Virus record (IMG/VR): IMGVR_UViG_3300042463_000409
Span: 4,133-68,132 of that record
DNA length: 64,000 bases
From: a virus
Direction: 5' to 3' (one strand)
Positions 10,051-62,200 of the stretch are shown here, piece after piece. The notes under the pieces were generated by a model. It saw nothing but the letters and a program-made list of their open reading frames with translations, searched no databases and had not been told where the DNA came from. The number at the start of each line of letters is the position of its first letter. The first letter of the stretch is position 1. The translations under genes and the position numbers were made by a program.

Positions 10051-10452
10051 TTATATCAAATTTAATTCACTTTTGCTATATGACAATGCAGAACGCAATA
10101 TTTCTATCTTGTAATGGCATTCTTTAATCAATAACTCTGTAATGTTATTGTAAAAGCTACAATCGCCTATCTCGTAAGCTATTAGCATCTTTTTTTCTGT
10201 TGCAGACCTATCGTCATTGTTTAATGTGATAAGCTTAGAGAAAGATAATTTCTCTGTAAGGTATTGGAACTGAGCTTTTGCTGTAATACCTAAAGACATT
10301 ATTGATGTAATTTCAGATAGGTGTTCTACAATAGCCCTAGGGTCGCTACAATCAATCTTTTTTCCTACAACAGCTCTGTATGCTTCATACATTTCTATTG
10401 ACTTTTCAAAAGCAGATTGCAATGATTGGTCTGTAAATACTTGCTTCGCCAT
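10051..10452 (-). CDS. Helical hypothetical protein
   Basis: 133-aa ORF with A-rich leader, in operon. Confidence 0.6.
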   Translation of the reverse strand: MAKQVFTDQSLQSAFEKSIEMYEAYRAVVGKKIDCSDPRAIVEHLSEITSIMSLGITAKAQFQYLTEKLSFSKLITLNNDDRSATEKKMLIAYEIGDCSFYNNITELLIKECHYKIEILRSALSYSKSELNLI

Positions 10453-10456
10453 GGTT

Positions 10457-10693
10457 TTATGGTTTTATTGGTTTAATTCTAAGTGCAAATTCTTTGTCTA
10501 ACTCTTTTGAATAGACTCTCTTCTTTTGTTTTATAGCATTCTTAATAACATTGTGGCCGATGATTAGCTTTTGTTGTGCTAATTTCAATGTCTTGAACTC
10601 AATGGCCTTTTCTCTTCGCTCTTCCAAATCTTCAATAGATAAGTCATAAGCTAAAATTGTAACTCTTGATTCGTCTATAAACTCGTATCCCAT
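10457..10693 (-). CDS. Hypothetical protein (possible small DNA-binding domain)
   Basis: 78-aa ORF packed between neighbours. Confidence 0.55.
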   Translation of the reverse strand: MGYEFIDESRVTILAYDLSIEDLEERREKAIEFKTLKLAQQKLIIGHNVIKNAIKQKKRVYSKELDKEFALRIKPIKP

Positions 10694-10694
10694 T

Positions 10695-12512
10695 TTAAAA
10701 CTTACATTTATGTTTTAGTAATAAATAATCCCTATTAAAAGGAAGCATTCCGTTTTCATCTACAAATTCAACTCCATTATTCATTCTTAATATGCATGGG
10801 TTTCCTTGTGTTGTCGGCTTGCCACCCGTCTCTTTATTTCTAACTTTATCAACAGAAATCTCTGTTACCATCCATTCGTATTGGTCTTTGATTTTCCTAT
10901 GATAAGTCACAAAGTTATCAACCCTATTGTAAAGTGCAGCACCCCCTTCGGTATCTGATGCGTGAGGCATCTTTTGGTTGCCATCTTTATCTCTTTCTCT
11001 TTGAGAATTGGTTGTACTATGTACTGATAAAAATATAGAAGTGTTGTATCTTTTTGTATAGTTGAGCATCTCGCTATATGCCTCGTAGTCGTATATGTAT
11101 TTATTCTTTGCTGCTGTCAACTCCATCTTCAAAGAATTATACGGATCAATAAACAGCCCCTTCAAAGACTTATAGTTCATAAGCACTTTAGAGTGGTCTA
11201 ATATCTCTCCGTATGTGTACATATTATCGGTAGATAGTATAAAGAAGTGCTCATCTACAAACTTTAATGAAGCTGCATGCTCTGAGTCGTTCATACTTGT
11301 AATCTTCTTGCCAACAAAGAACTCCATAATCTTCATCTTAACTGAAGCAGATTGATTCTCTCCTGTGTACAGCATCCAATTCCAATCATAATGCACAGCA
11401 GATAGGAAAATGAGCCACAAATTGACTGTTGTTTTACCAATATGGCTGTGTGCTAGGGACGCATAAAATTCGCCCTCTTTTAGCCTCAGATGGTCATCTA
11501 AATGCTTATACCCAAAAGGCATACCCATAGGTATGAGGCCAGACCTAAACTTATAGATAAAATCATCGTCTTTGGACCTAGAAGAAAGAAAGGACAAGTC
11601 TTCCTCCATAACTCCAATTTCACGTACAGCTTCCCTGTACTCAGATTCAACCTCATGTATAGGCCTGGTCATACCATGACGCAATCCGTCTTCTATGGTT
11701 CTCTTGGCTAGTTGGATGTCGTCTACATCTTTCTTAGAAATCTCGTGAGCAAGAATATCGTAAGCAATATCATATTCTATGTATTTAGTTGCAACATATC
11801 CGCCTAATAATGTAGCTGCCCTAAGTAACGTATGATGCTTTTGTCCATCAGGTGCTAGCCTAATCATTCTAGAGGCTACATCAATTTTTTTATAATCCGT
11901 AAACCCATCTCCCATTTTAACCGAAGATGGCTTTATCTCTTCGTCCTGAACAATATCAAAAAACACACTAGAAGATGTGTTAACGTATATCTCAGGATCA
12001 TAAGATACGTACAATACCCTAGCTATGTTTTTAGCTGTTGGGTCTAAGCCAGGTATCTTTTCTAGTAGAGCTTTGTAGTGCTGCGTATGCTTATTTCCGT
12101 CTCCAATCTTAACTAGACCATGAAGACCTCTACCACTAGAAGAAATCCATAAGGCATATATAAATGGATTATTAATTAATTCTTGCTTTGCCTCATTAAC
12201 ATCTTCGATATCATCAATATCTATTGGCACAAATCCGCTATGCTTTGTCAGAGATTTGTCATCTCTGTAAGACACATACTCTGTTCCGTTGTCTCTTGTT
12301 TTAGTTATAGGCTTATTAAATTCTCCTGAAAATAAAACGCATGGCAGTCCTGACTTTAACTCTCTAATTTTGTTCTCGTCTTTACATTGCCTTATCTCGC
12401 TTACTTTCTCTTTGTATTTGCCTGTTTCTATTCCTTTCAATACCGAACCCAATTCGACAAAGTGGGGCTCATGTATTGTAGTAATGTTTCTAAATAAGGT
12501 TACTCTCTGCAT
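10695..12512 (-). CDS. Primase-helicase (VirE/BT4734-like N-domain + DnaB-like SF4 helicase)
   Basis: KSGLPCVLFSG, DIDD, SSSGRGLHG primase-like motifs; HSHIGKTT Walker A; FIDPYN; KVRNKETGG. Confidence 0.82.
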   Translation of the reverse strand: MQRVTLFRNITTIHEPHFVELGSVLKGIETGKYKEKVSEIRQCKDENKIRELKSGLPCVLFSGEFNKPITKTRDNGTEYVSYRDDKSLTKHSGFVPIDIDDIEDVNEAKQELINNPFIYALWISSSGRGLHGLVKIGDGNKHTQHYKALLEKIPGLDPTAKNIARVLYVSYDPEIYVNTSSSVFFDIVQDEEIKPSSVKMGDGFTDYKKIDVASRMIRLAPDGQKHHTLLRAATLLGGYVATKYIEYDIAYDILAHEISKKDVDDIQLAKRTIEDGLRHGMTRPIHEVESEYREAVREIGVMEEDLSFLSSRSKDDDFIYKFRSGLIPMGMPFGYKHLDDHLRLKEGEFYASLAHSHIGKTTVNLWLIFLSAVHYDWNWMLYTGENQSASVKMKIMEFFVGKKITSMNDSEHAASLKFVDEHFFILSTDNMYTYGEILDHSKVLMNYKSLKGLFIDPYNSLKMELTAAKNKYIYDYEAYSEMLNYTKRYNTSIFLSVHSTTNSQRERDKDGNQKMPHASDTEGGAALYNRVDNFVTYHRKIKDQYEWMVTEISVDKVRNKETGGKPTTQGNPCILRMNNGVEFVDENGMLPFNRDYLLLKHKCKF

Positions 12513-12525
12513 ACATATTGATTTT

Positions 12526-12591
12526 GACCTTGTGCTAGATTCGAACTAACTCCTTCATATAGATGTGCTAACCATTAAACACCAACAAGGT
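12526..12591 (-). ncRNA. tRNA-like RNA with truncated anticodon arm
   Basis: ACCTTGT/ACAAGGT 7-bp acceptor; GTGT/GCAC D-stem with TGG loop; GTTAG-TTCGAAT-CTAGC T-arm; only 14 nt between D- and T-arms. Confidence 0.7.
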
Positions 12592-12679: not shown

Positions 12680-12949
12680 TTAGAATGGAAGGTCGTCAGT
12701 CTTACTAAAAGACTTTGGAGCTGCAGGTTGAACTGCATCTTTGTTAGGCTTCCATGTATCCAATACAGCAAATGCATTGTATCCGTACTGGTCAGGTGTC
12801 TTTTTATCTTTGATTTCGATATTTACGTAGCCTCTGTCATTTTGATGACTCTTAAGTTCTTCAATAAACTTTTCTACGTTGATACTAATCTTAGTACCAT
12901 ACTGAGTTTTCTTGCATCGTAATGCATTGATGTAAACAGTGTCTGACAT
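12680..12949 (-). CDS. Single-stranded DNA-binding protein (small phage type)
   Basis: Beta-rich 89 aa with C-terminal DDLPF tail, in the replication/recombination block. Confidence 0.65.
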   Translation of the reverse strand: MSDTVYINALRCKKTQYGTKISINVEKFIEELKSHQNDRGYVNIEIKDKKTPDQYGYNAFAVLDTWKPNKDAVQPAAPKSFSKTDDLPF

Positions 12950-12979
12950 TTTTATGGTTTTATTGGTTAAAAATTCGGT

Positions 12980-13010
12980 AAAAAAACCCCCGATGTAGAA
13001 ACACCAGGGG
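12980..13010 (-). terminator. Intrinsic terminator with TGT-TTCT-ACA apex
   Basis: Minus strand CCCCTGGTGT-TTCT-ACATCGGGGG followed by T7. Confidence 0.75.
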
Positions 13011-13039: not shown

Positions 13040-13312
13040 TTAAACATTTTCAAGCTTTCCCCATAGAAGCTTTTTCTTTGGGTTCTTGGTAGCTGTAATC
13101 GCTACATCAAATCCATATTCAGAGAGGATGTCAATGACAGCCCCCATGGATACGGTTCTTGGCTTCCCGTCTTTATCCATATACTTTCCAGAGTAGTTAA
13201 CGAAAAACCAATAGTTCTTTGACTTGTCTTTCGAGTAAATCTCATCTAGTATTTTGGCGATTTGAGGGTAGGTTTTGGTTAGTTTGGTTTTGGTTATGCC
13301 CTTCGCGTTCAT
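13040..13312 (-). CDS. Hypothetical protein
   Basis: 90-aa ORF followed by a terminator. Confidence 0.55.
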   Translation of the reverse strand: MNAKGITKTKLTKTYPQIAKILDEIYSKDKSKNYWFFVNYSGKYMDKDGKPRTVSMGAVIDILSEYGFDVAITATKNPKKKLLWGKLENV

Positions 13313-13316
13313 GGTT

Positions 13317-13682
13317 TTATTGTTTGGAAATCAGGACGACAGATTCTAGTTCACCATCATTGAAGTACGCCATAAACGTATAGAATACTTCGTAAGGTTT
13401 TCCGTAGAATAAAACATCTCCATTATAATAGCTTTTCTTTGTTACTTGGTTTATTTTTCGCATCTCTGCCGAGAATAGCCCGTCTTTATTATCCTTAGCT
13501 ACTAATTCATACTCGAAGTCTTCAAAGTATAAATATCCGTCCATACCAACATGGTAATCTAGGAACTGGCAGTCAAGACTCTTAGTTTGAAACTCAAGGT
13601 CTTTTAGATCTTCAAGTTCTTGCTCGTTCTCAATAGGCAGGAACTTTAGGTCTATTTTCAAGGTGTCGTATCTGCTCGACAT
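13317..13682 (-). CDS. Phage hypothetical protein
   Basis: 121 aa, FQTKSLDC motif; upstream TATATTCG promoter-like variant at 13707-13714. Confidence 0.6.
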   Translation of the reverse strand: MSSRYDTLKIDLKFLPIENEQELEDLKDLEFQTKSLDCQFLDYHVGMDGYLYFEDFEYELVAKDNKDGLFSAEMRKINQVTKKSYYNGDVLFYGKPYEVFYTFMAYFNDGELESVVLISKQ

Positions 13683-14772: not shown

Positions 14773-15318
14773 TTATCCATTTTTAATTTTATTTAATTCA
14801 GCTTCAACAGCTTTTGATATGTTATAGAATTGTCTAAGTTTAGCTACATCTAGATTATTTGATTCAGCTCTTTTAACAATAGCACTCCAATCCTTGTGCT
14901 TATCTGTTAGCCATTCTTTCTGAGGAGCCGCTGTATCTCTTGACATAGCCTTCTCTCCATCATCATCTTCGTCTTCAATAACTAGGTTTAATAATCCTGA
15001 TAAGCTATATCTTTTAGCATAAGTTACAGCACTACCATAGTCTTGTGCGGTCTGCTTTTGAACTACGATAGGAAAGTATGATACCATCAATTCTCCTGTC
15101 TCTACATGATATAGATTAGTTTGAACATAAGGAGCTCCGTCTAATACAATAGTTGGTTGTGATATCACTAATCCATTGCGACTTAAGTGAGGGGCTATGT
15201 GTTGCTGAATAGCATCTAATTGCGCATACTTTGATTTAAAGAATGGGTTGTTAGATGACTTTGTAATTGGTTCGCATTGTGATTGAAATAGTGACAATGC
15301 TTTTAATAAATTCTGCAT
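14773..15318 (-). CDS. erf: ERF-family single-strand annealing protein
   Basis: NPFFKSKYA, QDYGSAVTYAKRYSL, EDDDG signature. Confidence 0.9.
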   Translation of the reverse strand: MQNLLKALSLFQSQCEPITKSSNNPFFKSKYAQLDAIQQHIAPHLSRNGLVISQPTIVLDGAPYVQTNLYHVETGELMVSYFPIVVQKQTAQDYGSAVTYAKRYSLSGLLNLVIEDEDDDGEKAMSRDTAAPQKEWLTDKHKDWSAIVKRAESNNLDVAKLRQFYNISKAVEAELNKIKNG

Positions 15319-15337
15319 TTTATTGTTATTTAGTTCG

Positions 15338-15420
15338 TAGTCAGTGTAGGATTCGAACCTACATTTAGGAGACTGATGTATTTAATCTCAGTTTTCGTCT
15401 ACCATAACGACTTCCTGACT
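15338..15420 (-). ncRNA. tRNA-like RNA with aberrant anticodon arm
   Basis: AGTCAG/CTGACT acceptor; GTC/GAC D-stem with TGGTA; ACTGA/TCAGT stem with 11-nt loop; GTAGG-TTCGAAT-CCTAC T-arm. Confidence 0.65.
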
Positions 15421-20238: not shown

Positions 20239-20476
20239 CTGATAAGATATTTACTGTTGTGTCCAATGTATTTCTCTTGATGATAATCATCTTGTCGTTA
20301 TCATCTATTGAATACAGCATAGTAACTAATGAGCCACCACAATCTACAATTGTTTCAGACATAGTTACGAATATTTGCCTATATAAATCCAATGCCTGGT
20401 CTAACGTAGCTACGGATTGGGTGTCTGATGTGTGTTCGCCATCTGTTTCGATGTCGCTAAATATCTTATATATCAT
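20225..20476 (-). CDS. Hypothetical protein
   Basis: ORF overlapping both neighbours. Confidence 0.55.
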   Translation of the reverse strand: MIYKIFSDIETDGEHTSDTQSVATLDQALDLYRQIFVTMSETIVDCGGSLVTMLYSIDDNDKMIIIKRNTLDTTVNILSDVEH

Positions 20477-20682
20477 ATAATTGATTTTATTTTTAAAAAC
20501 TCGTTGTCTAGTATAGAGCCAACGTGATTTAATCCTGATAAATACCCACTCACGAATACAAGGTAAACTCCATTCTTACCTATCGCATCCATCATTAGCG
20601 GAACAGACGATTCGTTTTCTAGAACGAACTCTTCAAAGGCATTTAGTAAAGCCTTGTCTTCATAAATAGATTGGTTTTCCAT
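20473..20682 (-). CDS. Hypothetical protein
   Basis: First ORF after the promoter at 20703-20733. Confidence 0.55.
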   Translation of the reverse strand: MENQSIYEDKALLNAFEEFVLENESSVPLMMDAIGKNGVYLVFVSGYLSGLNHVGSILDNEFLKIKSII

Positions 20683-20702
20683 ATTGATTTTATTGGTTTA
20701 TA

Positions 20703-28265: not shown

Positions 28266-28351
28266 TGTTCACTATTTTGAACAAAATATGCACCATTTGT
28301 TCAATAAAATGAACATTTGCAGTAAAATTAATTTGTTCAATAAAATGAACA
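28266..28351. repeat. Three palindromic TGTTCA-N6-TGAACA boxes
   Basis: At 28266-28283, 28298-28315 and 28334-28351, just upstream of the RepL-like gene. Confidence 0.8.
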
Positions 28352-28391: not shown

Positions 28392-28898
28392 ATGAAACTT
28401 AAAGATTATCCTGTTTACAATTACAACCCTTTTAGGGTGAATGGAGATTATTTCAGAAGTATACCCACTCAGAAGGAGAAAGTCGTTTCCGACACGGGTG
28501 AGGTACTCAGGGACGAGAAGGAGTACAAGGTAGCCGATTTGCAGAGCCACGTCCGTATATACGAGGATATGTATGATTTACTATTTACTATGAGTCCTGC
28601 AGGTGTAATGATACTTGCCAATATCTTTAAACAGATGCCAAAGAACGGGGACTCTGTATTACTCAATGTACAGCAGATAGCTAGTGAACTGAACATAGGC
28701 AGTAGAAATACTGTTTATAAGGGTATTATAGAGCTTATGGACAAGAAGGTTATAGCCAAGGGTGTAGGTGCAGATATATACTATATAAACCCTGACTATG
28801 TGTATAAGGGTTCAAGGTCTGCGTGGTTTGAGAAGTACAAGGATTTTGATAAATGCAACAATGTTGCAACTATAAGAACTTATGTAAATAACAGGTAA
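28392..28898 (+). CDS. RepL-like winged-helix DNA-binding protein
   Basis: HTH QQIASELNIGSRNTVYKGIIELM and YYINPDYVYKG wing. Confidence 0.7.
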   Translation: MKLKDYPVYNYNPFRVNGDYFRSIPTQKEKVVSDTGEVLRDEKEYKVADLQSHVRIYEDMYDLLFTMSPAGVMILANIFKQMPKNGDSVLLNVQQIASELNIGSRNTVYKGIIELMDKKVIAKGVGADIYYINPDYVYKGSRSAWFEKYKDFDKCNNVATIRTYVNNR

Positions 28899-37999: not shown

Positions 38000-39136
38000 A
38001 TGACCGAAGAAAGCCTTAACCCGTTTGACGTTTCCAGTTATTCAACTCAGGACACGCAAGCAAATACTACCACGGTAGTAGAAGAAACACAAGGTACGGA
38101 TTTGCCACAGCAAGACCCTGCACCTACAGAAGAAAACAATGAAACTGCACAACAAAATGTGCAAACAAATACCGAACCTGCACAACCAGTTGTGCAAACG
38201 GAAGAAAATCAGGCCCAAGGTCAAGAGCCTGCCCAGCCAAAAAGTTTTGAGTGGGATAACGAAATGGCCAAGCAGATATATAATAGTCTTGTTAACGGAG
38301 ACATTTCTCAGGTTGCAGATATTATGTACGAGCAAAAAGTTCTTTCAGAGATTGACTCTATGAGTGAAAACGAGGTTCTTATGCTTAAGTTAGCATACGA
38401 TTATCCAGATTTAACTCCAGATGAAATCCAAGAAGAGTTTCATTCAAAGTACTCTGTTGATTCAGACTTTGATGAATCTCTTTTAACAGATGATGAAATT
38501 GCTTCAAAGAAAAAGCAAATCGAGAAGCAGCAAAAGGCTATTGCAAGAGAGATTAAGAAAGATGTGAGAGAGGCTAAAGAGTACTTGCAAACGCTAAAAC
38601 AGGACATTAGTTTTCCAGATATTCTGAGTCAAGTTCAACAGGCGCCACAGCAAAATGTGAATCCTGAAGAGTATGTGAATCAGTATTTGACAGCTCAACA
38701 AGAAGAGCAAGCGAAAGCGTATCAACAAGCTAGAGAGACATTTGAAAAAAGTGTTGAAGAAGGCTTGAGGAGTTTTGATGGATTTAACGTCAACTATAAG
38801 GACGAGGATGTCCAATTTGACGGAAAGTTTTCTCTAACGCAAGAAGAGAAAACCCAACTTCAAGACACTATGAAAGCTTTTGATTTAGAGTCTTTTTATG
38901 GTAATCGCTACTACAAGGAAGGTAAGTACGATACTAAGCAACTTGCAGAAGACATCTACTTCTTACAAAACAGAGACAAAGTTGTTAACTCTATGGTAAC
39001 GCAAGCCGTTAGCAAAGCGAAAGCAGATTTGTTAAAGAGTATGAAGAATATTGACTATAGCAATTCTCCAAGACAATCAGCAGCTATAAGCTCTAATGAT
39101 TACGATAAGATGGTGGATGCAATGTTTAATATTTAA
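38000..39136 (+). CDS. Capsid scaffolding protein (putative)
   Basis: Acidic helical protein between portal and MCP. Confidence 0.65.
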   Translation: MTEESLNPFDVSSYSTQDTQANTTTVVEETQGTDLPQQDPAPTEENNETAQQNVQTNTEPAQPVVQTEENQAQGQEPAQPKSFEWDNEMAKQIYNSLVNGDISQVADIMYEQKVLSEIDSMSENEVLMLKLAYDYPDLTPDEIQEEFHSKYSVDSDFDESLLTDDEIASKKKQIEKQQKAIAREIKKDVREAKEYLQTLKQDISFPDILSQVQQAPQQNVNPEEYVNQYLTAQQEEQAKAYQQARETFEKSVEEGLRSFDGFNVNYKDEDVQFDGKFSLTQEEKTQLQDTMKAFDLESFYGNRYYKEGKYDTKQLAEDIYFLQNRDKVVNSMVTQAVSKAKADLLKSMKNIDYSNSPRQSAAISSNDYDKMVDAMFNI

Positions 39137-39159
39137 AAAACAAATTAAAATAATTTAAG

Positions 39160-40500
39160 ATGCCAGTTTTACAACCAGGTAATGTACAACCTACAGGTGG
39201 CCAAGTAGCTCGTCAGTTTGTTTCTGACTTGTCTATCTTAAAGCCCCAGTACTATGACAAATTTATTGAGAAGTATGGTTCTCAAAACTACACTCAATTG
39301 TTAGAAGCTTTAGGTATGAAGGCTACAGTTCCTTCTCGTGAATTCTTCCACTTTGAGTCAAAAGGTAAATTACATTCAGCAGTTCAGTTGGATGGTGGTG
39401 CTTTAGCTAACGTAGCTGCAGGCGCTCCAGTAGACGTTGCTATTAGCTCTGCTTTCGTTGATGGCGGTAGAAGCCCATTACGTGTAGGTGAAGTAGTAGA
39501 AAACGCTGCTACAGGCGTTCAGTACAAAATCACAGCTGTAGCTTCTGCAACTGCTTGTACTATTAGACCTTTAGATTCTGCAATTGATGCTAACACTGAT
39601 TTAGGTGCTAACTCAACTGCACATTTGTTATTCCGTGGAATTTCAGAAGCTGGTGAAGCATCTAGCAAATTCAACAGTTTAACAGGTCTTACTGAAAGAA
39701 AAACTTTCTTCACAACTGAAATCCGTGAAGATTTTTCTATCACAGATAGAGCTAAAATTGAAGAACTTTATTTTGAAGTAAACGGTCAAGCTTACTATAC
39801 CTACAAAGGTCTTGATGAAGCTGTACGTCGTTTCATGAACAATAAAGAGTTCAAATTAATGTTTGGTAAGCCAACTAACAACATCAGCGGTACTGTAGGT
39901 ACTACAGGTCTTGTTCCTCAAATCGAGGCTGGTGGACAAACTTATCAGTGGAATGCTTCTTCTAGCGGTTTCACTATCGATGATTTCCACGCTCTTGCTC
40001 GTCTTGCTGACTTCAATGGCGGTTCTAGCGAATACCATTTCTTAATGGATTCTTACTTAAGAACTGTTGTTGACGATGCGTTATTCAACAAGTACACTAA
40101 CGGCGCTATTCAGTGGGCTGCAGTTGGTGGTTCTAGCGAAGTTGCAATCAAATATGGCTTCGATTCATTAAAGATTGATGGTACTACTTTCCACTTAAAG
40201 AAATACTTACCATTCAATGCTGAAGCTGTTTATGGTGTTGCTCCTTCAACAGAGTACTACAAGAATAGCGGTATCTTAATCCCTGTTAAAGAGGGTAGAG
40301 ATGCTCAAACTGGCGACAAAATCCCTTCATTACGTATTGTTTACAATGAAGTTGAAGCTGGTAAAGAAATCAAAGTTTGGGAAACAGGTGCTTTAGCTAA
40401 AGTTCCTACTTCTGACAAGATGGAATTGAATGTACACCACATGGCATACTGCGGTATTCAAGTGTTTGCTGCAAATCAATACATCAGCGTTAAGAGCTAG
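39160..40500 (+). CDS. Major capsid protein
   Basis: 446 aa, strongly biased codons, GTTGLVPQI, GFDSLKIDGTTFHLK; followed by a terminator. Confidence 0.85.
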   Translation: MPVLQPGNVQPTGGQVARQFVSDLSILKPQYYDKFIEKYGSQNYTQLLEALGMKATVPSREFFHFESKGKLHSAVQLDGGALANVAAGAPVDVAISSAFVDGGRSPLRVGEVVENAATGVQYKITAVASATACTIRPLDSAIDANTDLGANSTAHLLFRGISEAGEASSKFNSLTGLTERKTFFTTEIREDFSITDRAKIEELYFEVNGQAYYTYKGLDEAVRRFMNNKEFKLMFGKPTNNISGTVGTTGLVPQIEAGGQTYQWNASSSGFTIDDFHALARLADFNGGSSEYHFLMDSYLRTVVDDALFNKYTNGAIQWAAVGGSSEVAIKYGFDSLKIDGTTFHLKKYLPFNAEAVYGVAPSTEYYKNSGILIPVKEGRDAQTGDKIPSLRIVYNEVEAGKEIKVWETGALAKVPTSDKMELNVHHMAYCGIQVFAANQYISVKS

Positions 40501-40520
40501 TTTTAACTTGATTATAAAGA

Positions 40521-40555
40521 GACCCCATCGTATAGCGGTGGGGTTTTCTTTTTTT
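40521..40555 (+). terminator. Intrinsic terminator after MCP
   Basis: ACCCCATCG-TATAG-CGGTGGGGT followed by a T-run. Confidence 0.8.
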
Positions 40556-40584
40556 ATTATATTTGTAACATAAAACAAACCATT

Positions 40585-41505
40585 ATGTCAAAAACCACGA
40601 AAAAACAAACTATTGACGCTAACGGTGACATCGTAGATGTTATCGATACGGCAAATCAAATTGAAGAGGTTGCCGATATTAAAGTAGAAGCACCTAAAAG
40701 ACAGGTAAAGAAACCTGAATTCTACGTTTTCCAATTGACTCAGAAATTCTATGTAACAAGTCCAGGTAAGCTACCTTATCCTGAAAATTGGCTAGTTAAG
40801 AATGCTGACATTATTTATGACGAAGAAACAGGGACTGAAAGAAATATTAGATATTTAGAGGGCGTAAGCACTATATGGGAAGATGAACAAGAACATCTTT
40901 CTGAGCAAAAGAAACGTTCTAGGCCAGATATTAGATTTGTAAACGGATACCTTAGAGTTCCAGCAAACAAACCTTCGTTACTAGAGTTCTTGATGAAAAG
41001 CAACATGAACGAGAGCAACAAGAATAGAATGGCCGGGACTAAGTCTCTATACAAACTTCTTGATTTTCAAGCTGAAGAAGATAAAAACTTAGAGAAAGCA
41101 GAAACAAGAATGCAGGCTATGAAGATAGCTATGGAGGCTCCATTAGATATGATGATTCCTCACGCTAAATATCTTGGTGTTAAATTCACAAACAATCAGA
41201 ATGTAGAAAGGGGAGATAAGGCTATTAGATTTGACTATCTAGATGTAGCTGATAAGAAACCTGATATGTTCATTAAAACCTATAATAATCCATTAGTTAA
41301 GATTCAGTACATTGTACAGAAAGCTGCTGCTAGTGGATTGGTAGACACGAGCTCGGTTAAAGGTCAAGCAATTTGGGGTGATAGCAAGTCTTTTATTGCT
41401 CAAATCCCAGATGGTAAAGCTCCTATTGAATTCCTATCGGAGTTCTGCTTAACTGAAAAGGGTAAAGAATTTTATTCTCAGATTAAACATATGGTTAACT
41501 CCTAA
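40585..41505 (+). CDS. Post-capsid protein of unknown function
   Basis: ERNIRY...IRFVNGYLRVP; own promoter TATATTTG at 40558-40565. Confidence 0.6.
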   Translation: MSKTTKKQTIDANGDIVDVIDTANQIEEVADIKVEAPKRQVKKPEFYVFQLTQKFYVTSPGKLPYPENWLVKNADIIYDEETGTERNIRYLEGVSTIWEDEQEHLSEQKKRSRPDIRFVNGYLRVPANKPSLLEFLMKSNMNESNKNRMAGTKSLYKLLDFQAEEDKNLEKAETRMQAMKIAMEAPLDMMIPHAKYLGVKFTNNQNVERGDKAIRFDYLDVADKKPDMFIKTYNNPLVKIQYIVQKAAASGLVDTSSVKGQAIWGDSKSFIAQIPDGKAPIEFLSEFCLTEKGKEFYSQIKHMVNS

Positions 41506-41567
41506 GACGCTTCGTGTTTTATGGTTTTATTGGTTAGGGCCCCTTGTTTCTACAGGGGGCTTTTTTT
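41506..41567 (+). ncRNA. 3'UTR antisense element + TGT-TTCT-ACA terminator
   Basis: GTTTTATGGTTTTATTGGTTA (41516-41536) is complementary to early-gene leaders; GCCCCTTGT-TTCT-ACAGGGGGC-T7 at 41539-41567. Confidence 0.6.
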
Positions 41568-41582
41568 ATTTATATTTGCAAT

Positions 41583-42227
41583 ATGAATATTAACGATATA
41601 TACAAACTTGTGTCATATCTAGTAGATAAATACCAAGGAACATATTTATCTCCAGATGACTTTAATATGGCCATCAATATGGCTCAAAGGCAATACCTAA
41701 ACTTCCTGACAGAAGAAACGTTAGAAACAACGGGAAGAGGCCCTGGGCAGCAACAATTTGTTACTAGAGGTTCTTTGTCTGGATTTCTTAAAGAAAGCAC
41801 ATTAACCATATCTAGTCAATTAGCTACTTATCCATCAGACTACTATAAGATATCTGCAATGAGAACGACTAATGACGACTTCTTGATTAGAAAAGTTGGT
41901 GCAGATAAACTATATGCTTACATAAATAACCCAATCGATACCCCTACATTAACAGAGCCAATATATACTGAAATAGGAAGCAACTTTAAATTCTTCCCAA
42001 ATACATTAACTTCAGCTAAAATTATTTATTTTAAGCAGCCAGTTGATGCAGCATGGGTTCCATTAACAGGAACGTTAACATACAATCCATCAGCTAGTAC
42101 TCAATTAGAATGGCCTGATAATGATTTAAATGATATTATATACAGAACAATAGGTATTATAGGAATCAATTTAAAAGACGGAGACTTAGTAAGAGCTTCT
42201 TTAACAGTTAAAAACGATGGTCAATAA
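41583..42227 (+). CDS. Head-tail ring/adaptor protein
   Basis: YLSPDDFNMAINMAQ...YFKQP pattern; position after the capsid genes; ATG at 41583. Confidence 0.7.
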   Translation: MNINDIYKLVSYLVDKYQGTYLSPDDFNMAINMAQRQYLNFLTEETLETTGRGPGQQQFVTRGSLSGFLKESTLTISSQLATYPSDYYKISAMRTTNDDFLIRKVGADKLYAYINNPIDTPTLTEPIYTEIGSNFKFFPNTLTSAKIIYFKQPVDAAWVPLTGTLTYNPSASTQLEWPDNDLNDIIYRTIGIIGINLKDGDLVRASLTVKNDGQ

Positions 42228-42850
42228 TGACTAGAAAAGTAATAATAGAACAGATAAGACGTATCTTGTATGGCGGTGTGCCAAATGACGATGCAAATGT
42301 TTCTGAAAAAGAAATAAACGTATACTTGAATCAAGCCATAGCTTATATGGCTAAAATCAATTATACAGACGCTATTAAACTAGATGGAATAGAAACGGTT
42401 GCGGATTCTTTTTATGCTACGTTTAAGAACTTAACAGTATTGTTAGACACAGATACGGGGTATTACTATACAGAGTTGCCTCAAGTTCCTTTAGGATTAT
42501 CTAGAGGATATGGCATTTCAACAGTTACATTCCCCACATCTACTGGACTAGCAAAAGCACCGATACCTATATCTGTTAGAGAGTTGGACTATATGGATAA
42601 CCTAAAGACACCTCCTAGTAAGATATTTTATTGGGCTGAAGGTAAAAGGCTCTGGTTCAAGAGTTATACAAATCTAGTTGGCAGGGCTCCTATTGTTAGA
42701 ATGGTAAGTACAGAAAACGATGATTTAAATGCTGAGGTTAATGTTCCTCAAGAATACATCTCAGATATGATTAACTTAGTATTAACTCAATTAAAAATTA
42801 GAAAAGGAACACCAGAGGAAGGCGTTAACGATGGTGCAGATAAAGCTTAA
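42227..42850 (+). CDS. Head-tail ring protein
   Basis: Coupled to the previous gene; similar size and character. Confidence 0.6.
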   Translation: MTRKVIIEQIRRILYGGVPNDDANVSEKEINVYLNQAIAYMAKINYTDAIKLDGIETVADSFYATFKNLTVLLDTDTGYYYTELPQVPLGLSRGYGISTVTFPTSTGLAKAPIPISVRELDYMDNLKTPPSKIFYWAEGKRLWFKSYTNLVGRAPIVRMVSTENDDLNAEVNVPQEYISDMINLVLTQLKIRKGTPEEGVNDGADKA

Positions 42851-42855
42851 ATAAT

Positions 42856-43626
42856 ATGGCAAAGAATACAGCAAAATGGGTTCCACTATCTGAGATAATC
42901 TATCAGTACATAGACCAAGCAAGAATGTCTAATGCAGACTATAGAAGGCTATGGACAATAGGCATTAGAGGTGTTGAAGAGATGGGTCTTGATGTATACT
43001 CTACTCCAAGAACAGTTAAGTTAATGGTTAATCCTAATAAGACAGTTAATCTTCCTTCTGATTACATTGGTTTTTCTAAAGTAGGTGTATTTAACGCTAA
43101 AGGAGAGGTAGCTTCTTTGAGAAGAAATATAGGATTGAGTTCATTTAAAATTACTCAATCAGATAGACTTACTAGCAATACAGATAACACCACAGGTAAT
43201 ACATATAGACTTCAAGACCTAGCTTACGTAAACTATTTTGACGGAGCAAGGTATGTAAACATATTTGGTGTTGGGTCTGTTTTGAATAATGCAGGTGAAT
43301 TTGATATAGATGAAGAGGAAGGTTTGATATACCTAGGTAATGACTATGATTTTACTTATGTAGTTTTAGAGTATATGTCATCTCCATCTAGTGACCCTGA
43401 TTATAAAATACCTATTCAGATAAGGGAAGCTGTTTTAGCTTTTATAGCATGGAAAGATATTGAGCATCTGCCATTAGGAAGAAAGGCTAGCCTAGGCGAC
43501 AAGCAACTAAGACGTAAAGAATACTACAACCAAAAGAGAAACGCTAACTTAAGAGAAACTCCTATGTTCCTTTGGGATGCAAATGAGGTTATTAGAATGG
43601 GTGCTAAACTAGCAGTTAAGATATAA
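42856..43626 (+). CDS. Head-tail ring protein
   Basis: LPSDYIGFSKV, VVLEYMS, IPIQIREAVLAFI. Confidence 0.65.
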   Translation: MAKNTAKWVPLSEIIYQYIDQARMSNADYRRLWTIGIRGVEEMGLDVYSTPRTVKLMVNPNKTVNLPSDYIGFSKVGVFNAKGEVASLRRNIGLSSFKITQSDRLTSNTDNTTGNTYRLQDLAYVNYFDGARYVNIFGVGSVLNNAGEFDIDEEEGLIYLGNDYDFTYVVLEYMSSPSSDPDYKIPIQIREAVLAFIAWKDIEHLPLGRKASLGDKQLRRKEYYNQKRNANLRETPMFLWDANEVIRMGAKLAVKI

Positions 43627-43627
43627 T

Positions 43628-44260
43628 ATGAAAATAGAAAGGAAGACTTTTTCGGGAATAATGAATCTAGATGACCCAAGAGAGGTGTTCCCTCCTAGTC
43701 ATCATAGAGAGGCTAAAAATGGAGTCTTTAGAGGCAATGGTACGTATAATAGGTACGAGAGCATTAGAGGAAACCAAGAGTCTGCAAATAGGGAATTAAT
43801 AACAAATAATTGTACTATAAGAGGAATAGCTAGAAGAATAGATTGCGGATTTAGTGGCATAGCTGTCAAAGTAGTTTCAGATTGTATGCTACTTGGTAAC
43901 GCAACAAAGGTTACTGTTGTTGATCCTAATATAGCAGTTTCTAGTGTAGGAGCGTATTCTGGGGCTTGTATAGGCGGCACGATTAATGAGTACCTTACAG
44001 CTTATATTGGATTAAATAATATAGTTGTATCTGATACCACTTTTGAAGTGCAAGTTAGATATGTCTATAGCGGCAATACATGCACTTTAGAGAATTTCTT
44101 TTATGCAAATTTCCAATTGGTAGTACCAGCTGGAAGTAATGGAGTAGAATTAGATATGTGTACGCAGGGTGGATATGTAGGATTCCCTTTCAGTATATGT
44201 TCAACTTGTATAATTAGTTGTAGCAACCCTGCGATAAATATATCAGCATTTGATTGCTAG
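43628..44260 (+). CDS. Muzzle N-terminal peptide fused to a Cys-rich domain
   Basis: FSGIMNLDD...P...REAKN...ESIRGN N-terminus, then CxxxGxA repeats and a Cys-rich tail. Confidence 0.6.
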   Translation: MKIERKTFSGIMNLDDPREVFPPSHHREAKNGVFRGNGTYNRYESIRGNQESANRELITNNCTIRGIARRIDCGFSGIAVKVVSDCMLLGNATKVTVVDPNIAVSSVGAYSGACIGGTINEYLTAYIGLNNIVVSDTTFEVQVRYVYSGNTCTLENFFYANFQLVVPAGSNGVELDMCTQGGYVGFPFSICSTCIISCSNPAINISAFDC

Positions 44261-56894: not shown

Positions 56895-56942
56895 TATCAT
56901 CAAAATAAAGCTTTTTAGGTATATTTGCATAAACAAATAAAT

Positions 56943-59213: not shown

Positions 59214-62200
59214 ATGCAAATATTATCTAATTTATCCTTATACGGAACATTAGGATTAAATTCAGTAGCTGACGCTAATACTGATACTGACAAGTTTCTT
59301 GTCATAGATTCTAATGGAATAGTAAAATACAGAACAGGCCAAGAGCTCTACAATGATATTGGGGCAGGTGGAGCGGCAGCTTATACGTCTAATCTTCAGC
59401 ATGAAGTGAAGGCGGGTGTAGCTCTAGCTAAAGGTCAAGCTGTATATGTTACAAGCGCTGATGGCACTAATATGATAGTTGGCAAAGCTTCAAACGCATC
59501 AGAGGCTACATCAAGCAAGACATTAGGATTAATAGCACAAGACCTTTCAATAAATGCCAAGGGCTTTGTTATTACAGAAGGGTTGCTTTCGGGATTAAAT
59601 ACAATGGCAGCAGGAACTGAAGGGGATCCTGTATGGCTAGGAACAGATGGCAATTTAATATACGGCTTAGGTGCTAAACCTTATGCTCCTGACCATCTAG
59701 TTTTCATTGGTATTGTTACTAGAAAAAATGCTAATAACGGAGAAATATTTGTTAAGGTACAGAACGGATTTGAGCTCCAAGAGCTTCACAACGTTCAAAT
59801 AACATCTACTCCTTCTGATAATACAGTTCTAGCGTATGAGACTTCTACATCTTTATACAAGATGAAGTCGATACCTGCATTGTTAGGATATACTCCTACA
59901 ACTAATGCTAGAACATTAACTATAAATGGAACTTCTTATGATTTAAGTGCAGATAGAAGTTGGTCAGTAGGTACGCATACAGGTAATTTAACTACAGGAT
60001 ATGTACCTAAAGCTACAGGAGCTACAACATTAACAGATAGTATAATATACGATAATGGTAGCGGTATAGGTATTAATACAAACTCTCCATACGAGTCTTC
60101 AGCTTTTAAGCTAGATGTAAATGGTGGAGTGATTATTAAAAATACTAGCGGCACAGCTGCTCAATTAATATTAATAAATTCAAATCCTGCTACAGGAGGC
60201 AATAATGGATTCGTTCAACTAAGTGCTGGTGGAAACACCGCCACCGCGTTTGGACAATGGCAAACATATTATGGAATGTCTGTTGCTTCAGGAGCATTAA
60301 GACTTCAACCGGCAGGTGGTCAAGTTCTAATTGGAACAACAACAACATCAGCGTTCACTACTGATATAAATGGAACATTAAGAGTATCAGGTCAACTAAC
60401 ATTAGGCTCAACAATAAGTAACAATACTTATGTTTATACTATGCCAGGAGCTTCAGGAACTTTAGCTCTTGTTAGTCAAATACCTAGCTTGAGCGGATAC
60501 GTTCAAACTTCTAGGACATTAACAATAAACGGAGTTTCTTATGATCTATCAGCTGATAGGTCTTGGTCTATAGCTACAGGTATAACATCTGCAACCGCAG
60601 GCAACGGAATATCTATAGGAGGAACTTCATCTGCAATTACAATTACAAACACAGGAGTTTTAACTGCAACAGCAAGTAATGGTATATTAATAGGCGGAAC
60701 CTCTTCAAATATAACAATTGCAAATACAGGTGTCTTAACCGCTGCGGCAGGTAACGGTATTTCTATAGGCGGTACTACTTCAAATATAACAATTTCAAAC
60801 ACGGGTGTGCTAACTGCTACCGCAAGCAATGGTATTTCTATAGGAGGTACTTCTTCAAATATAACAATTGCAAATACGGGGATACTGACTGCAACTGCAG
60901 GAAATGGAATTAGTGTATCTGTAGTTAGCGGTGGGTTAACGATTACGAATACAATCAATAATACGAATCAACTTACCAATGGAGCAGGGTACATAACAGG
61001 TATCACTAGCTCAATGGTAACAAGTGCTTTAGGTTACACTCCTTATAATAGCTCAAACCCTAATGGATATATCAGTTCGTACACAGAAACCGATACATTA
61101 GCTAGTGTTACAGGCAGGGGAGCTAGCACATCAACATTATCAAACTTTAATGCAGGATTGACTTCTGCAAAGACTTCTAAAACTGCATATGGTGTACAAA
61201 TAAAAGGAGCTTTTTATGGAGCTCCAAGATTACAGTTATATGATTTAGCTGTTGATAGTAATGCATTTGTTGGTTTAGGTGTAGACATGTCTGGTGCAGC
61301 ATATGAATTTTCAAATTATTTTCCTAGATATGCTGGTAATGGCAAATGGTCGGTAGGGTCTTGGGCAGGTGATTTTGGAACAGGACAATATGTTTCTGGA
61401 TATAATGAAAAGTTTTGGATAACTGAAAGTGCTTCTGCACTTAATGTACCTATAACTGTAAACGGAAGAATAACAAGTACAAGTAGTTTAGGTTTATATG
61501 TTAATTCAGGTGGTGCATCTTATATAGGTATTAATTCAACTTCAAGTTGGGCTTATGCTAGTCTTTTAAATAATGGAACTACAACATGGGATTTAGGAGC
61601 GTTTAATGGTGGAAATTTTGAGTTTAGACCTTATGGTGGAGATAATAATAGAATAATAGTAGGATTAAATGGTGTTATGTATTTTACTGACACTACAAAT
61701 GGTGTTTACAAATCTGGTGGAAGATTTACTGTACGCTCAGAATCTACAGATAACGTAGCAAACTTTGCAAGCTATGGTCTTTATCTTCCTGTAATGGGAC
61801 AAACTGCAGGTCTTTATGTTGAGAGTCCTATCGAAGCTAGAGGTGGTTTAAGAATGGGTAATAATGCCGGCAGTGGAACAATAACTGTGGGAGCTACAAC
61901 AGGAGCAACAGCAGATAGACTTGTTCAGCGTGATTCAGGTGGGGATATATACAGTCGTTATTCATTTGCTATACACTTTAATGCATCATGTGCAAATAAT
62001 GAAAATCCTTCTATTGGAGGTATATGGGCAAATAGTACATCTGATAATTATTTAAGAAAGTCTACACCTGCTCACTTTATAAGTCAATTAGGTCTTATTA
62101 CTACATCAAACTATTCATCTTATTCACTTCCTTTATCTGGAGGTATAATGACAGGTGCTTTAGTAAATAATACAGATGGTGCTGTTATAATGGAATCTAA

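What the first reader, a model, noticed from the sequence alone, without database searches (positions are those of the whole stretch)
41506..41567. Late 3'UTR is a perfect 20-nt antisense to the translation-initiation regions of two early genes
Seen: TTTTATGGTTTTATTGGTTA at 41517-41536 (+ strand, between the stop of the post-capsid gene and a terminator) is identical to 12950-12969, the 20 nt directly upstream of the minus-strand SSB start codon. GTTTTATGGTTTTATTGGTT (41516-41535) is identical to 10454-10473, upstream of the 10051-10452 start. Shorter matches lie at the starts of 13040-13312 (12 nt) and 20473-20682 (11 nt). The late RNA is + and the early mRNAs are -, so they would base-pair. 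Known: Bacteroidota initiate translation on A-rich leaders without Shine-Dalgarno sequences. Inference: a trans-acting, 3'UTR-derived sRNA that shuts off replication-gene translation late in infection, i.e. an RNA-based early-to-late switch in a phage with no RNAP or sigma gene visible in this window.
Basis: partly seen in the sequence, partly recalled or inferred. Interest (0 to 1): 0.85.

Follow-up and report, generated by a model that had tools for sequence, protein, structure and literature searches.

The report
Late-gene tail RNA complementary to early-gene starts
The untranslated tail of a late phage gene carries a conserved stretch that can base-pair with the start regions of several early phage genes, above all a small 90-residue one, so it is a good but untested candidate for an RNA that turns early genes off late in infection.

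Summary
The 31 nt between the stop of the 306-aa gene (40585-41505) and a strong intrinsic terminator hold a 20-mer identical to the + strand at 12950 and 10454, so the late RNA is antisense to two minus-strand start regions (0 of 100 shuffles).

The element is present in all 30 related records examined, down to 49% identity in the adjacent protein. Its sequence is nearly fixed, while the terminator stem behind it changes freely.

It is the 90-aa gene 13040-13312. About 24-29 predicted base pairs cover -16..+14 (-31 to -37 kcal/mol) in 11 of 23 records holding both loci. Own element and own target pair best in 5 of 5 lineages tested, with two compensatory substitutions and one shared deletion.

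In the other 12 of 23 records this pairing is weak or shifted, so the element's conservation there is unexplained.

No usable RNA data exist. 12680-12949 is not shown to be an SSB. A three-palindrome operator array at 28266-28351 suggests a protein-based switch also exists.

Best reading (about 0.5): a trans-acting antisense function of the late 3'UTR. It is a new variant of a known kind.

The parts
40558..40565 (+). TATATTTG, a Bacteroidota-type -7 promoter box for the 306-aa gene. It follows the terminator at 40519-40547.
   Evidence: The box is conserved upstream of the gene in 26 of 27 sequences; L053 and L059 read TATCTTTG. The TAnnTTTG consensus is recalled, not taken from a call.
40585..41505 (+). 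306-aa gene of the head module. Its mRNA carries the element. Function unknown.
   Evidence: PHROG 34748, unknown function. No Pfam hit. AF2 model pLDDT 72, no PDB fold match. 215 homologues.
41506..41536 (+). Conserved G/U-rich element GACGCTTCGTGTTTTATGGTTTTATTGGTTA, the proposed antisense (seed) region.
   Evidence: 17 columns are invariant within it across 15 distinct sequences. It is mostly unpaired in MFE folds.
41536..41569 (+). Intrinsic terminator: a 12-pair stem, a UUCU loop and a T-run.
   Evidence: All 15 distinct relatives have a 9-13 bp hairpin plus U-run whose stem sequences differ.
41571..41578 (+). TATATTTG -7 box of the next gene (41583-42227, SU10-adaptor-like). The ATG lies 4 nt after it.
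   Evidence: invariant columns T69-G76.
13297..13323 (-). Predicted target site on the 90-aa gene 13040-13312 (p90), about -11 to +16 around its ATG. It overlaps the stop of 13317-13682.
   Evidence: 24 predicted pairs including 2 G-U, -31.1 kcal/mol. 0 of 300 shuffled elements reach it. Rank 1-3 in 7 of 7 close-clade genomes with intramolecular folding counted.
12950..12969 (-).
   Evidence: Cofold ddG -21.5, rank 4 of 94. Reduced to 11 nt in G002 and G003.
10454..10474 (-). 20-nt perfect target (21 nt with one mismatch) upstream of the ATG of 10051-10452 (133 aa, unknown function).
   Evidence: Best target in this genome: cofold ddG -31.4, rank 1 of 94. Degraded in G002 and G003.
20688..20698 (-). 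11-nt match AACCAATAAAA in the leader of 20473-20682, just after a TAAATTTG -7 box.
12987..13010 (-). Early-strand terminator between p90 and the 89-aa gene. It shares the TGTTTCTACA loop region with the late terminator.
   Evidence: There are only two exact copies in the window. The same loop recurs in relatives' late terminators.

Best explanation
The 31-nt G/U-rich segment between the stop codon of the late 306-aa gene and its terminator hairpin acts as a trans-acting antisense RNA. It may act as part of the full late mRNA or as a 3'-end fragment carrying the terminator.

As late transcripts build up, the segment pairs with the A/C-rich, Shine-Dalgarno-less start regions of early mRNAs and covers the start codon. 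In the whole close clade the target is the 90-aa gene 13040-13312. In this genome the 133-aa gene 10051-10452 and the 89-aa gene 12680-12949 are also targets, with weaker pairing to other AACCAAT-type leaders. The expected result is blocked translation initiation and perhaps cleavage of the duplex.

Shown here: the complementarity, its position, its conservation and its co-variation. Inferred: that the RNAs meet, that pairing represses, and that it matters for timing.
For: 1. Beyond chance. 0 of 100 shuffles give the 3 copies. The top start-region duplex exceeds all 60 shuffled elements in 7 of 7 close-clade genomes. In G000, 8 of 94 start regions hold a 9-nt or longer complement, against 0 for the reversed sequence and a mean of 2.4 for shuffles.

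2. Architecture. The element is an unpaired conserved stretch followed by a hairpin and U-run in 15 of 15 distinct relatives. The element is present in 30 of 30 records that hold the 306-aa gene, while stem sequences vary. The complementarity fills exactly the stretch from stop codon to hairpin.

3. p90 as partner. Duplexes reach -31 to -37 kcal/mol in 11 of 23 records. 0 of 300 shuffles reach the observed value in each of 5 genomes. With intramolecular folding counted, p90 ranks 1-3 among 55-98 genes in 7 of 7 close-clade genomes.

4. Co-variation. The cognate pair is the strongest in 5 of 5 rows of the swap matrix. There are a U-A to C-G change and a shared 1-nt deletion at one paired position, and a C-G to U-A change in GCTT[C/T]G (plus manual reading).

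5. Strand logic. Target copies are sense in the mRNA on either DNA strand. In G002 and G003 the + strand 168-aa gene carries a 20-nt and an 11-nt sense copy. The only conserved complement is the late 3'UTR.

6. Sliding register. The complementary patch moves along the UTR between lineages: UTR positions 14-34, 28-42 and 5-15. That suits RNA pairing better than a fixed protein-binding site.

7. Codon bias. p90 codons 7-9 are ATA-ACC-AAA in 27 of 31, 20 of 25 and 26 of 27 sequences, unlike other Ile and Lys columns of the same gene.
Against: - In the G-variant clade the element is just as conserved, yet p90 start-region duplexes are only -15 to -20 kcal/mol in 12 of 23 records. Start-region hits there do not exceed shuffles.
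- The 12-15-nt matches found in that clade (G013, G014) need the left arm of the terminator stem. They fall to rank 8 and 4 once the hairpin is allowed to fold. Pairing with phage early start regions therefore cannot explain conservation in about half of the family.
- One close-clade record (G021) has a C opposite the element's C at the variable site.
- Only about four independent lineages carry the co-variation. Short-tract gene conversion between the two loci, or co-evolution with a DNA-binding protein, would also give it.
- Because the element is almost all G and U, nearly every target transition stays pairable, so a wobble test has no power.
- Gene starts come from my own crude ORF caller.
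- There is no evidence of a stable RNA, of timing or of repression.
- The functions of all three targets are unknown.
Confidence: 0.5

Rival explanations
1. The element's core, family-wide function is something else at the RNA level. Candidates are binding of a host or phage protein, control of stability or translation of its own 306-aa mRNA (for example by pairing with its own 5' leader), or a host RNA target. On this view the complementarity to early start regions in the window's clade is a secondary gain, or a by-product of the A/C-rich leaders.
For: The element is conserved equally in the G-variant clade, where no strong phage start-region partner is found. The gene's own 5' region is a top-5 predicted target in 5 of 14 genomes. 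It exceeds most shuffles in many distant relatives, with 0-15 of 200 shuffles reaching the observed value. In G000 and G005 a 9-10-nt complement lies in the gene's own leader.
Against: Pairing with the own leader is weak in the window (-14.1 kcal/mol; 27 of 200 shuffles reach it). It is not cognate-specific in any clade. It cannot explain the 24-29-bp duplexes with p90 or their co-variation. A degenerate scan of 185,579 species genomes for a full-length complement found only another phage relative and no host gene.
Confidence: 0.2
2. The repeats act as DNA: binding sites for one phage DNA-binding protein, as operators or iterons. The late copy and the early copies co-evolve with that protein.
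For: In the window all three long copies are direct repeats on one strand, and two of them flank the primase/helicase gene. Co-variation between sites is also expected for sites that share one binding protein.
Against: The shared patch slides along the UTR between lineages. The sequence is not palindromic. The early copies decay within 83%-identical genomes while the late copy stays invariant. In G002 the best copy is inverted at the DNA level yet still sense in its mRNA. The boundaries of similarity coincide with the RNA-level landmarks, stop codon and hairpin. A separate and much more operator-like array exists at 28266-28351.
Confidence: 0.1
3. The pairing works in the opposite direction, or during transcription. 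The early p90 mRNA pairs with the nascent late transcript, including the left arm of the terminator, and modulates termination or decay of the late mRNA. This would be a mutual toggle.
For: In G013 and G014 the 15-nt and 12-nt exact matches cover the 3' end of the element plus the left arm of the stem. That arm is free only before the hairpin forms (versus 87). 10 of 12 positions match at the same place in the window (my reading).
Against: The next gene has its own conserved promoter right after the terminator, so read-through seems unnecessary. The stem-arm matches share one ancestry (G008, G013, G014). No such mechanism in trans is known to me (recalled).
Confidence: 0.08
4. The late copy is a leftover of illegitimate recombination or of a leader cassette and has no function. 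Alternatively it is an early-type promoter or leader on the minus strand driving an antisense transcript into the 306-aa gene.
For: Early leaders form a family sharing AACCAAT, present in 7 of 44 minus-strand leaders. Leader cassettes seem to move between genes in close relatives. On the minus strand the late locus reads hairpin then leader, like the locus at 12950-13010.
Against: A relic would not stay nearly invariant in 30 of 30 records, down to 49% protein identity next door. No minus-strand ORF follows it. At p90 the motif lies inside the end of the upstream gene, 4 nt from its stop codon, so it is not at an operon start. No -7 box precedes it on the minus strand.
Confidence: 0.07

Closest known systems
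P1/P7 c4 and P4 CI immunity RNAs (trans-acting phage antisense RNAs; recalled, no paper read here)
   Same: A phage RNA cut from or carried on a longer transcript pairs in trans with sites at or near the ribosome-binding region of another gene of the same phage.
   Different: No sequence or structure relation: the Rfam scan of the window gave 0 hits. Here the pairing part is a linear 3'UTR segment, not hairpin loops. The carrier is a late structural mRNA, the targets are early genes of a lytic-looking phage, and the targets lack Shine-Dalgarno sequences.
3'UTR-derived sRNAs of enterobacteria such as CpxQ, SroC and DapZ (recalled)
   Same: A conserved single-stranded seed directly upstream of the parent mRNA's own intrinsic terminator, acting on the start regions of other mRNAs.
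   Different: Those are cellular, Hfq-dependent and shown by experiment. Here the host is probably Bacteroidota, processing is unknown, and the duplexes are much longer (20-29 bp).
Lambda late-operon sRNAs LPR2 and 6S, and PreS (bioRxiv 10.1101/2024.10.31.621285; outline and section 17 read)
   Same: The authors report late-operon sRNAs with partners encoded in early operons. LPR2 is proposed to sponge PreS, and 6S has one target encoded in a lambda early operon. That is late RNA talking to early RNA.
   Different: Those were found by RIL-seq with Hfq in E. coli. Their roles are still open, they are not 3'UTR seeds against start codons, and they have no relation to this family.
[quoted passage not shown]
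   Same: Lytic phages produce abundant UTR-derived RNA species that are conserved within genera.
   Different: No targets or mechanism are given in the passages I saw. Supplementary tables were not available to me.
T4 RegA translational repressor (PMC3014915; listing and abstract only; mechanism recalled)
   Same: The same logic: several early mRNAs are shut off after the early period by masking their translation-initiation regions.
   Different: RegA is a protein. Here the proposed repressor is RNA.

Membership tests
3'UTR-derived trans-acting sRNA | Lies in the 3'UTR of a coding gene and shares that gene's intrinsic terminator | tested here: met
   Stop codon at 41503-41505, element at 41506-41536, hairpin plus T-run at 41536-41569.
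3'UTR-derived trans-acting sRNA | Conserved, accessible seed while neighbouring non-coding sequence drifts | tested here: met
   Present in 30 of 30 records. 17 columns of the element are invariant, against variable stems. Mostly unpaired in MFE folds.
3'UTR-derived trans-acting sRNA | Complementarity to target start regions beyond chance, kept across relatives | tested here: inconclusive
   Met in the close clades: 11 of 23 records, and rank 1-3 in 7 of 7 genomes. Not met in the G-variant clade: 12 of 23 records.
3'UTR-derived trans-acting sRNA | Compensatory changes between seed and target | tested here: met
   Cognate pair best in 5 of 5 rows. Two double substitutions and one shared deletion. 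One counter-example, G021. Few independent lineages.
3'UTR-derived trans-acting sRNA | A discrete stable RNA species, made by processing or from an internal promoter | not testable with these tools
   Only metatranscriptome contigs with 5-8% of the sampled words were found. Contigs show no ends and no strand.
3'UTR-derived trans-acting sRNA | Regulatory effect on the target | not testable with these tools
   No cultured phage or host is available.
Known phage antisense RNA families in Rfam (e.g. C4) | Match to the family covariance model | tested here: not met
   0 matches at gathering thresholds in the whole window.
Cis-encoded antisense RNA (lambda OOP, P22 sar type) | Transcribed from the strand opposite its target, at the same locus | tested here: not met
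   The element lies 28-31 kb from its targets.
DNA operator or iteron set | Fixed protein-sized site, palindromic or clustered, at promoters or an origin | tested here: not met
   The sequence is not palindromic. The shared patch slides between lineages. The early copies decay in near relatives.

The most novel reading that the evidence does not exclude
The late 3'UTR and the 5' end of the early p90 mRNA form a two-way RNA toggle conserved across an uncultured family of Bacteroidota phages.

Early in infection, abundant p90 mRNA would pair with the nascent late transcript, in some lineages including the left arm of its terminator, and alter termination or trigger decay. Late in infection, excess late RNA would mask the Shine-Dalgarno-less start regions of p90 and other early genes.

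This would be an RNA-only temporal switch working on Kozak-like bacterial leaders.
Probability: 0.1. Interest if true: 0.9.

Novelty: new variant of a known kind. Interest (0 to 1): 0.68.

Why it matters
If true, this would be a phage-encoded riboregulator carried on a late structural mRNA that silences early genes. It would occur in a phylum whose mRNAs lack Shine-Dalgarno sequences and where very few base-pairing RNAs have been characterised.

It would show how a G/U-rich 'anti-leader' can mask A/C-rich start regions. It would add an RNA layer to temporal control in lytic phages. It would also single out one small early protein of unknown fold, p90, as something the phage needs to switch off.

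The comparative signal makes the idea directly testable with a reporter and compensatory mutations. That signal is an invariant seed, a drifting terminator stem and cognate-specific pairing.

Tried and rejected
- Phage DNA search: a distant blastn of 39000-44000 against 50,697 phage records found no match.
- tRNA: ARAGORN found 0 genes, despite GGTTCGAATC-like strings upstream of 10695-12512 and 14773-15318.
- Rfam: 0 hits.
- Public RNA runs: 3 runs held 5-8% of the sampled words. All are contigs, mostly from relatives. One contig (X2 record 7) covers 41383-41537 with 1 different letter, and one (X1 record 5) runs across the terminator from 41467 to 41696 with 12 different letters. Contigs show no ends, no strand and no proof of transcription, so I take no evidence from them.
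- p90: the AF2 model is good (pLDDT 89.4), but Foldseek finds nothing at E <= 0.001 in PDB or BFVD. The ESM Atlas gave no usable hit.
- 89-aa protein: only unnamed viral clusters.
- 306-aa protein: model pLDDT 72, no fold match. I therefore cannot say it is a capsid or decoration protein.
- Consensus folding of the raw MAFFT alignment found only 4 pairs, because the stems are misaligned. Single-sequence folds were used instead.
- Genome-wide duplex scans in 7 G-variant genomes gave only background-level hits.
- Wobble-direction test: dropped. The element is nearly all G and U, so almost any transition in a target remains pairable.
- Duplication idea: I considered that the terminator plus motif at 12950-13010 was a duplicate of the late locus, because of the shared TGTTTCTACA. 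I rejected it as evidence. The same loop recurs in many relatives' terminators, and the hairpins are inverted relative to the motif.
- Three fragments that hold p90 (G023-G025) lack the 306-aa gene, so they say nothing.
- Literature: searches found no paper describing a late 3'UTR antisense to early start regions in a Bacteroidota phage. This covers only the held open-access library, and supplements were closed.

Full report
**What the window is.** The window is bases 4133-68132 of a 68,132-bp IMG/VR virus record with 127-bp direct terminal repeats and 36% G+C. Minus-strand genes from about 8.5 to 27 kb include a primase/helicase (10695-12512; PHROG 18375, E 1e-65) and many small ORFs. I call these 'early' by inference. 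Plus-strand genes from 28.4 to 59.2 kb are the head and tail genes, which I call 'late'. Several plus-strand genes, and at least one minus-strand gene, are preceded by TAnnTTTG. I recall that as the Bacteroidota -7 promoter box. Leaders are A/C-rich and lack Shine-Dalgarno sequences. This fits what is reported for Flavobacterium johnsoniae (PMC6847099; I saw the listing and the start of the abstract).

With up to 3 mismatches there are only 3 places, against 0.03 expected, and 0 of 100 shuffles reach 3. The full record holds no further copy. The late copy lies in the 31 nt between the TAA of the 306-aa gene 40585-41505 and a 12-pair hairpin with a T-run (41536-41569). A TATATTTG box and the ATG of the SU10-adaptor-like gene 41583-42227 follow directly. 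The 306-aa gene also has a terminator and a TATATTTG box just upstream. It therefore looks like a monocistronic unit. The name 'SSB' for 12680-12949 has no support.

**The leaders form a family.** Early leaders share AACCAAT followed by an A-rich stretch. In this genome 7 of 44 minus-strand ORF leaders carry it, against 1 of 50 plus-strand leaders. Gene starts are from my own crude ORF caller. The complement of this motif is what the late 3'UTR carries.

**Relatives.** Protein searches found a large uncultured family: 215 homologues of the 306-aa protein. The family includes 26 IMG/VR loci at 49-99% identity, two more records, and one contig binned in a Chitinophagaceae MAG.

All 30 records, window included, carry the element directly after the stop codon. 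Its form is GCTT[C/T]GTGTT, then 2-5 variable bases, then (T)ATGGTTT, then one variable or missing base, then ATTGGTT. Behind it every one of 15 distinct sequences folds into a 9-13-pair hairpin with a 4-nt loop and a U-run. The stem sequences differ. In a genome that is only about 74% identical in alignable DNA (G004), the 23 bases GTGTTTTATGGTTTTATTGGTTA are unchanged while the stem has changed. The element is therefore under selection, and the hairpin is selected for shape only.

**The two perfect 20-mers are young.** They occur in the window and in its 99% twin G001. In G002 and G003, which are 83% identical in DNA, the leaders of the 133-aa and 89-aa genes have changed, and exact complementarity is down to 11 nt. 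In those genomes the first plus-strand gene (168 aa) instead has a 20-nt (G002) or 11-nt (G003) sense copy in its leader. Full-length leader copies thus come and go between genes. Each is sense in its mRNA whichever DNA strand it lies on, and each is a sub-string of the complement of the late element.

**The most conserved partner is the 90-aa gene 13040-13312 (p90).** With G-U pairs, the whole element from stop codon to hairpin pairs with p90 from about -11/-17 to +14/+16, and the AUG is buried. There are 24-29 predicted pairs, at -31 to -34 kcal/mol, in G000, G004, G005, G007 and G018.
- None of 300 shuffled elements reaches the observed value in any of these five genomes.
- Across 23 records that hold both loci, 11 give -31.1 to -37.1 kcal/mol.
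- When intramolecular folding of both RNAs is counted, p90 ranks 3, 3, 1, 1, 1, 1, 1 among 55-98 genes in the seven close-clade genomes. The next-best genes trail far behind in four of them.
- In this genome the 133-aa gene ranks first (-31.4), a 529-aa gene second, p90 third (-22.8) and the 89-aa gene fourth.

**Co-variation.** When elements and p90 start regions are swapped among five genomes, the cognate pair is the strongest in every row.
- At the variable base the pairs are U-A (window clade) and C-G (G005, G018). In G007 a base is missing on both sides.
- In GCTT[C/T]G the pair is C-G in the window clade and U-A elsewhere (my reading).
- Two further changes are U-A to U-G.
- One record, G021, breaks the rule at the variable base but still gives -33.1 kcal/mol.
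- Only about four independent lineages are involved, so this is moderate evidence, not decisive.

**The distant half of the family.** In the G-variant clade (12 of 23 records) the p90 start region pairs weakly, at -15 to -20 kcal/mol. No start region stands out from shuffles, and genome-wide scans show only background.

p90 is still singled out by exact matches: it ranks 1-3 of all genes in 12 of 12 genomes. There is a 15-nt match in G013 and a 12-nt match in G014, but these lie at codons 4-9 and pair with the end of the element plus the left arm of the terminator stem. They lose rank once the hairpin is allowed to form. Codons 7-9 of p90 are ATA-ACC-AAA far more uniformly than other Ile and Lys columns of the same gene, which hints at constraint at the RNA level.

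I cannot explain the element's conservation in this clade. That is the main reason my confidence stays near one half.

**Rivals.**
- A DNA-binding site is disfavoured. The shared patch slides between lineages, the sequence is not palindromic, the early copies decay quickly, and one copy is inverted on the DNA while still sense in its mRNA.
- A relic, or a minus-strand promoter or leader, does not fit the invariance. No ORF follows it and no -7 box precedes it.
- Pairing with the gene's own 5' leader is weak in the window and is not cognate-specific.
- A co-transcriptional effect of p90 mRNA on the late terminator is possible but speculative.

**What is known.** Trans-acting phage antisense RNAs (P1/P7 c4, P4 CI) and 3'UTR-derived sRNAs of enterobacteria are recalled precedents. 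Lambda late-operon sRNAs with early-operon partners are reported in bioRxiv 10.1101/2024.10.31.621285 (section 17 read). UTR-derived ncRNA candidates in virulent Pseudomonas phages are reported in PMC10914365 (passages read). My three literature searches found nothing that describes this arrangement. The window has no Rfam match. I therefore file the finding as a new variant of a known kind. It is supported by comparative sequence evidence only.

**Limits.** There are no RNA ends and no experiments. The target functions are unknown.

Noticed in passing
window 28266-28351: Three perfect palindromes TGTTCA-N6-TGAACA, 32 and 36 bp apart, lie in the divergent region between the minus-strand and plus-strand gene blocks, just upstream of the 168-aa gene at 28392. 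Three matches were found against 0.33 expected, and 1 of 100 shuffles reaches 3. This looks like an operator array for a dimeric repressor, that is, a protein-based switch.
   Followed up: partly
window 60575-60911: A tandem array of 4.3 copies of a 75-bp unit (25 codons), 77% matching. It is probably a repeat inside a long tail or fibre gene that has no ATG-started ORF in the list.
   Followed up: no
window 12513-12560 and about 15319-15360 (minus strand): GGTTCGAATC-like strings, resembling tRNA T-arms, lie upstream of 10695-12512 and 14773-15318. ARAGORN finds no tRNA. These may be tRNA remnants.
   Followed up: partly
window 12987-13010 (-) and 41536-41563 (+); relatives L040-L042, L052, L057: Terminators of this phage family repeatedly use the same loop region, G/A-UUUCUA-C/U with a UUCU tetraloop.
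   Followed up: partly
window 13040-13312 (-): p90 gives a confident AF2 model (pLDDT 89.4, five helices) with no fold match in PDB or BFVD. Its 5' coding region repeats AACCAAA three times, through Thr-Lys codons.
   Followed up: partly
L098 (MAG contig CAZUUI010000026.1): A relative of this phage, with the 306-aa gene end, the element and the adaptor gene, sits on a 13.8-kb contig binned in an uncultured Chitinophagaceae MAG. This is a weak hint at the host group.
   Followed up: no
window 41571-41585; also 56925: The ATG of 41583-42227 lies only 4 nt after its TATATTTG box, so that mRNA may be leaderless or nearly so. The TTG 'start' listed at 56925 is part of another TATATTTG box, so the true start is probably further downstream.
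   Followed up: no
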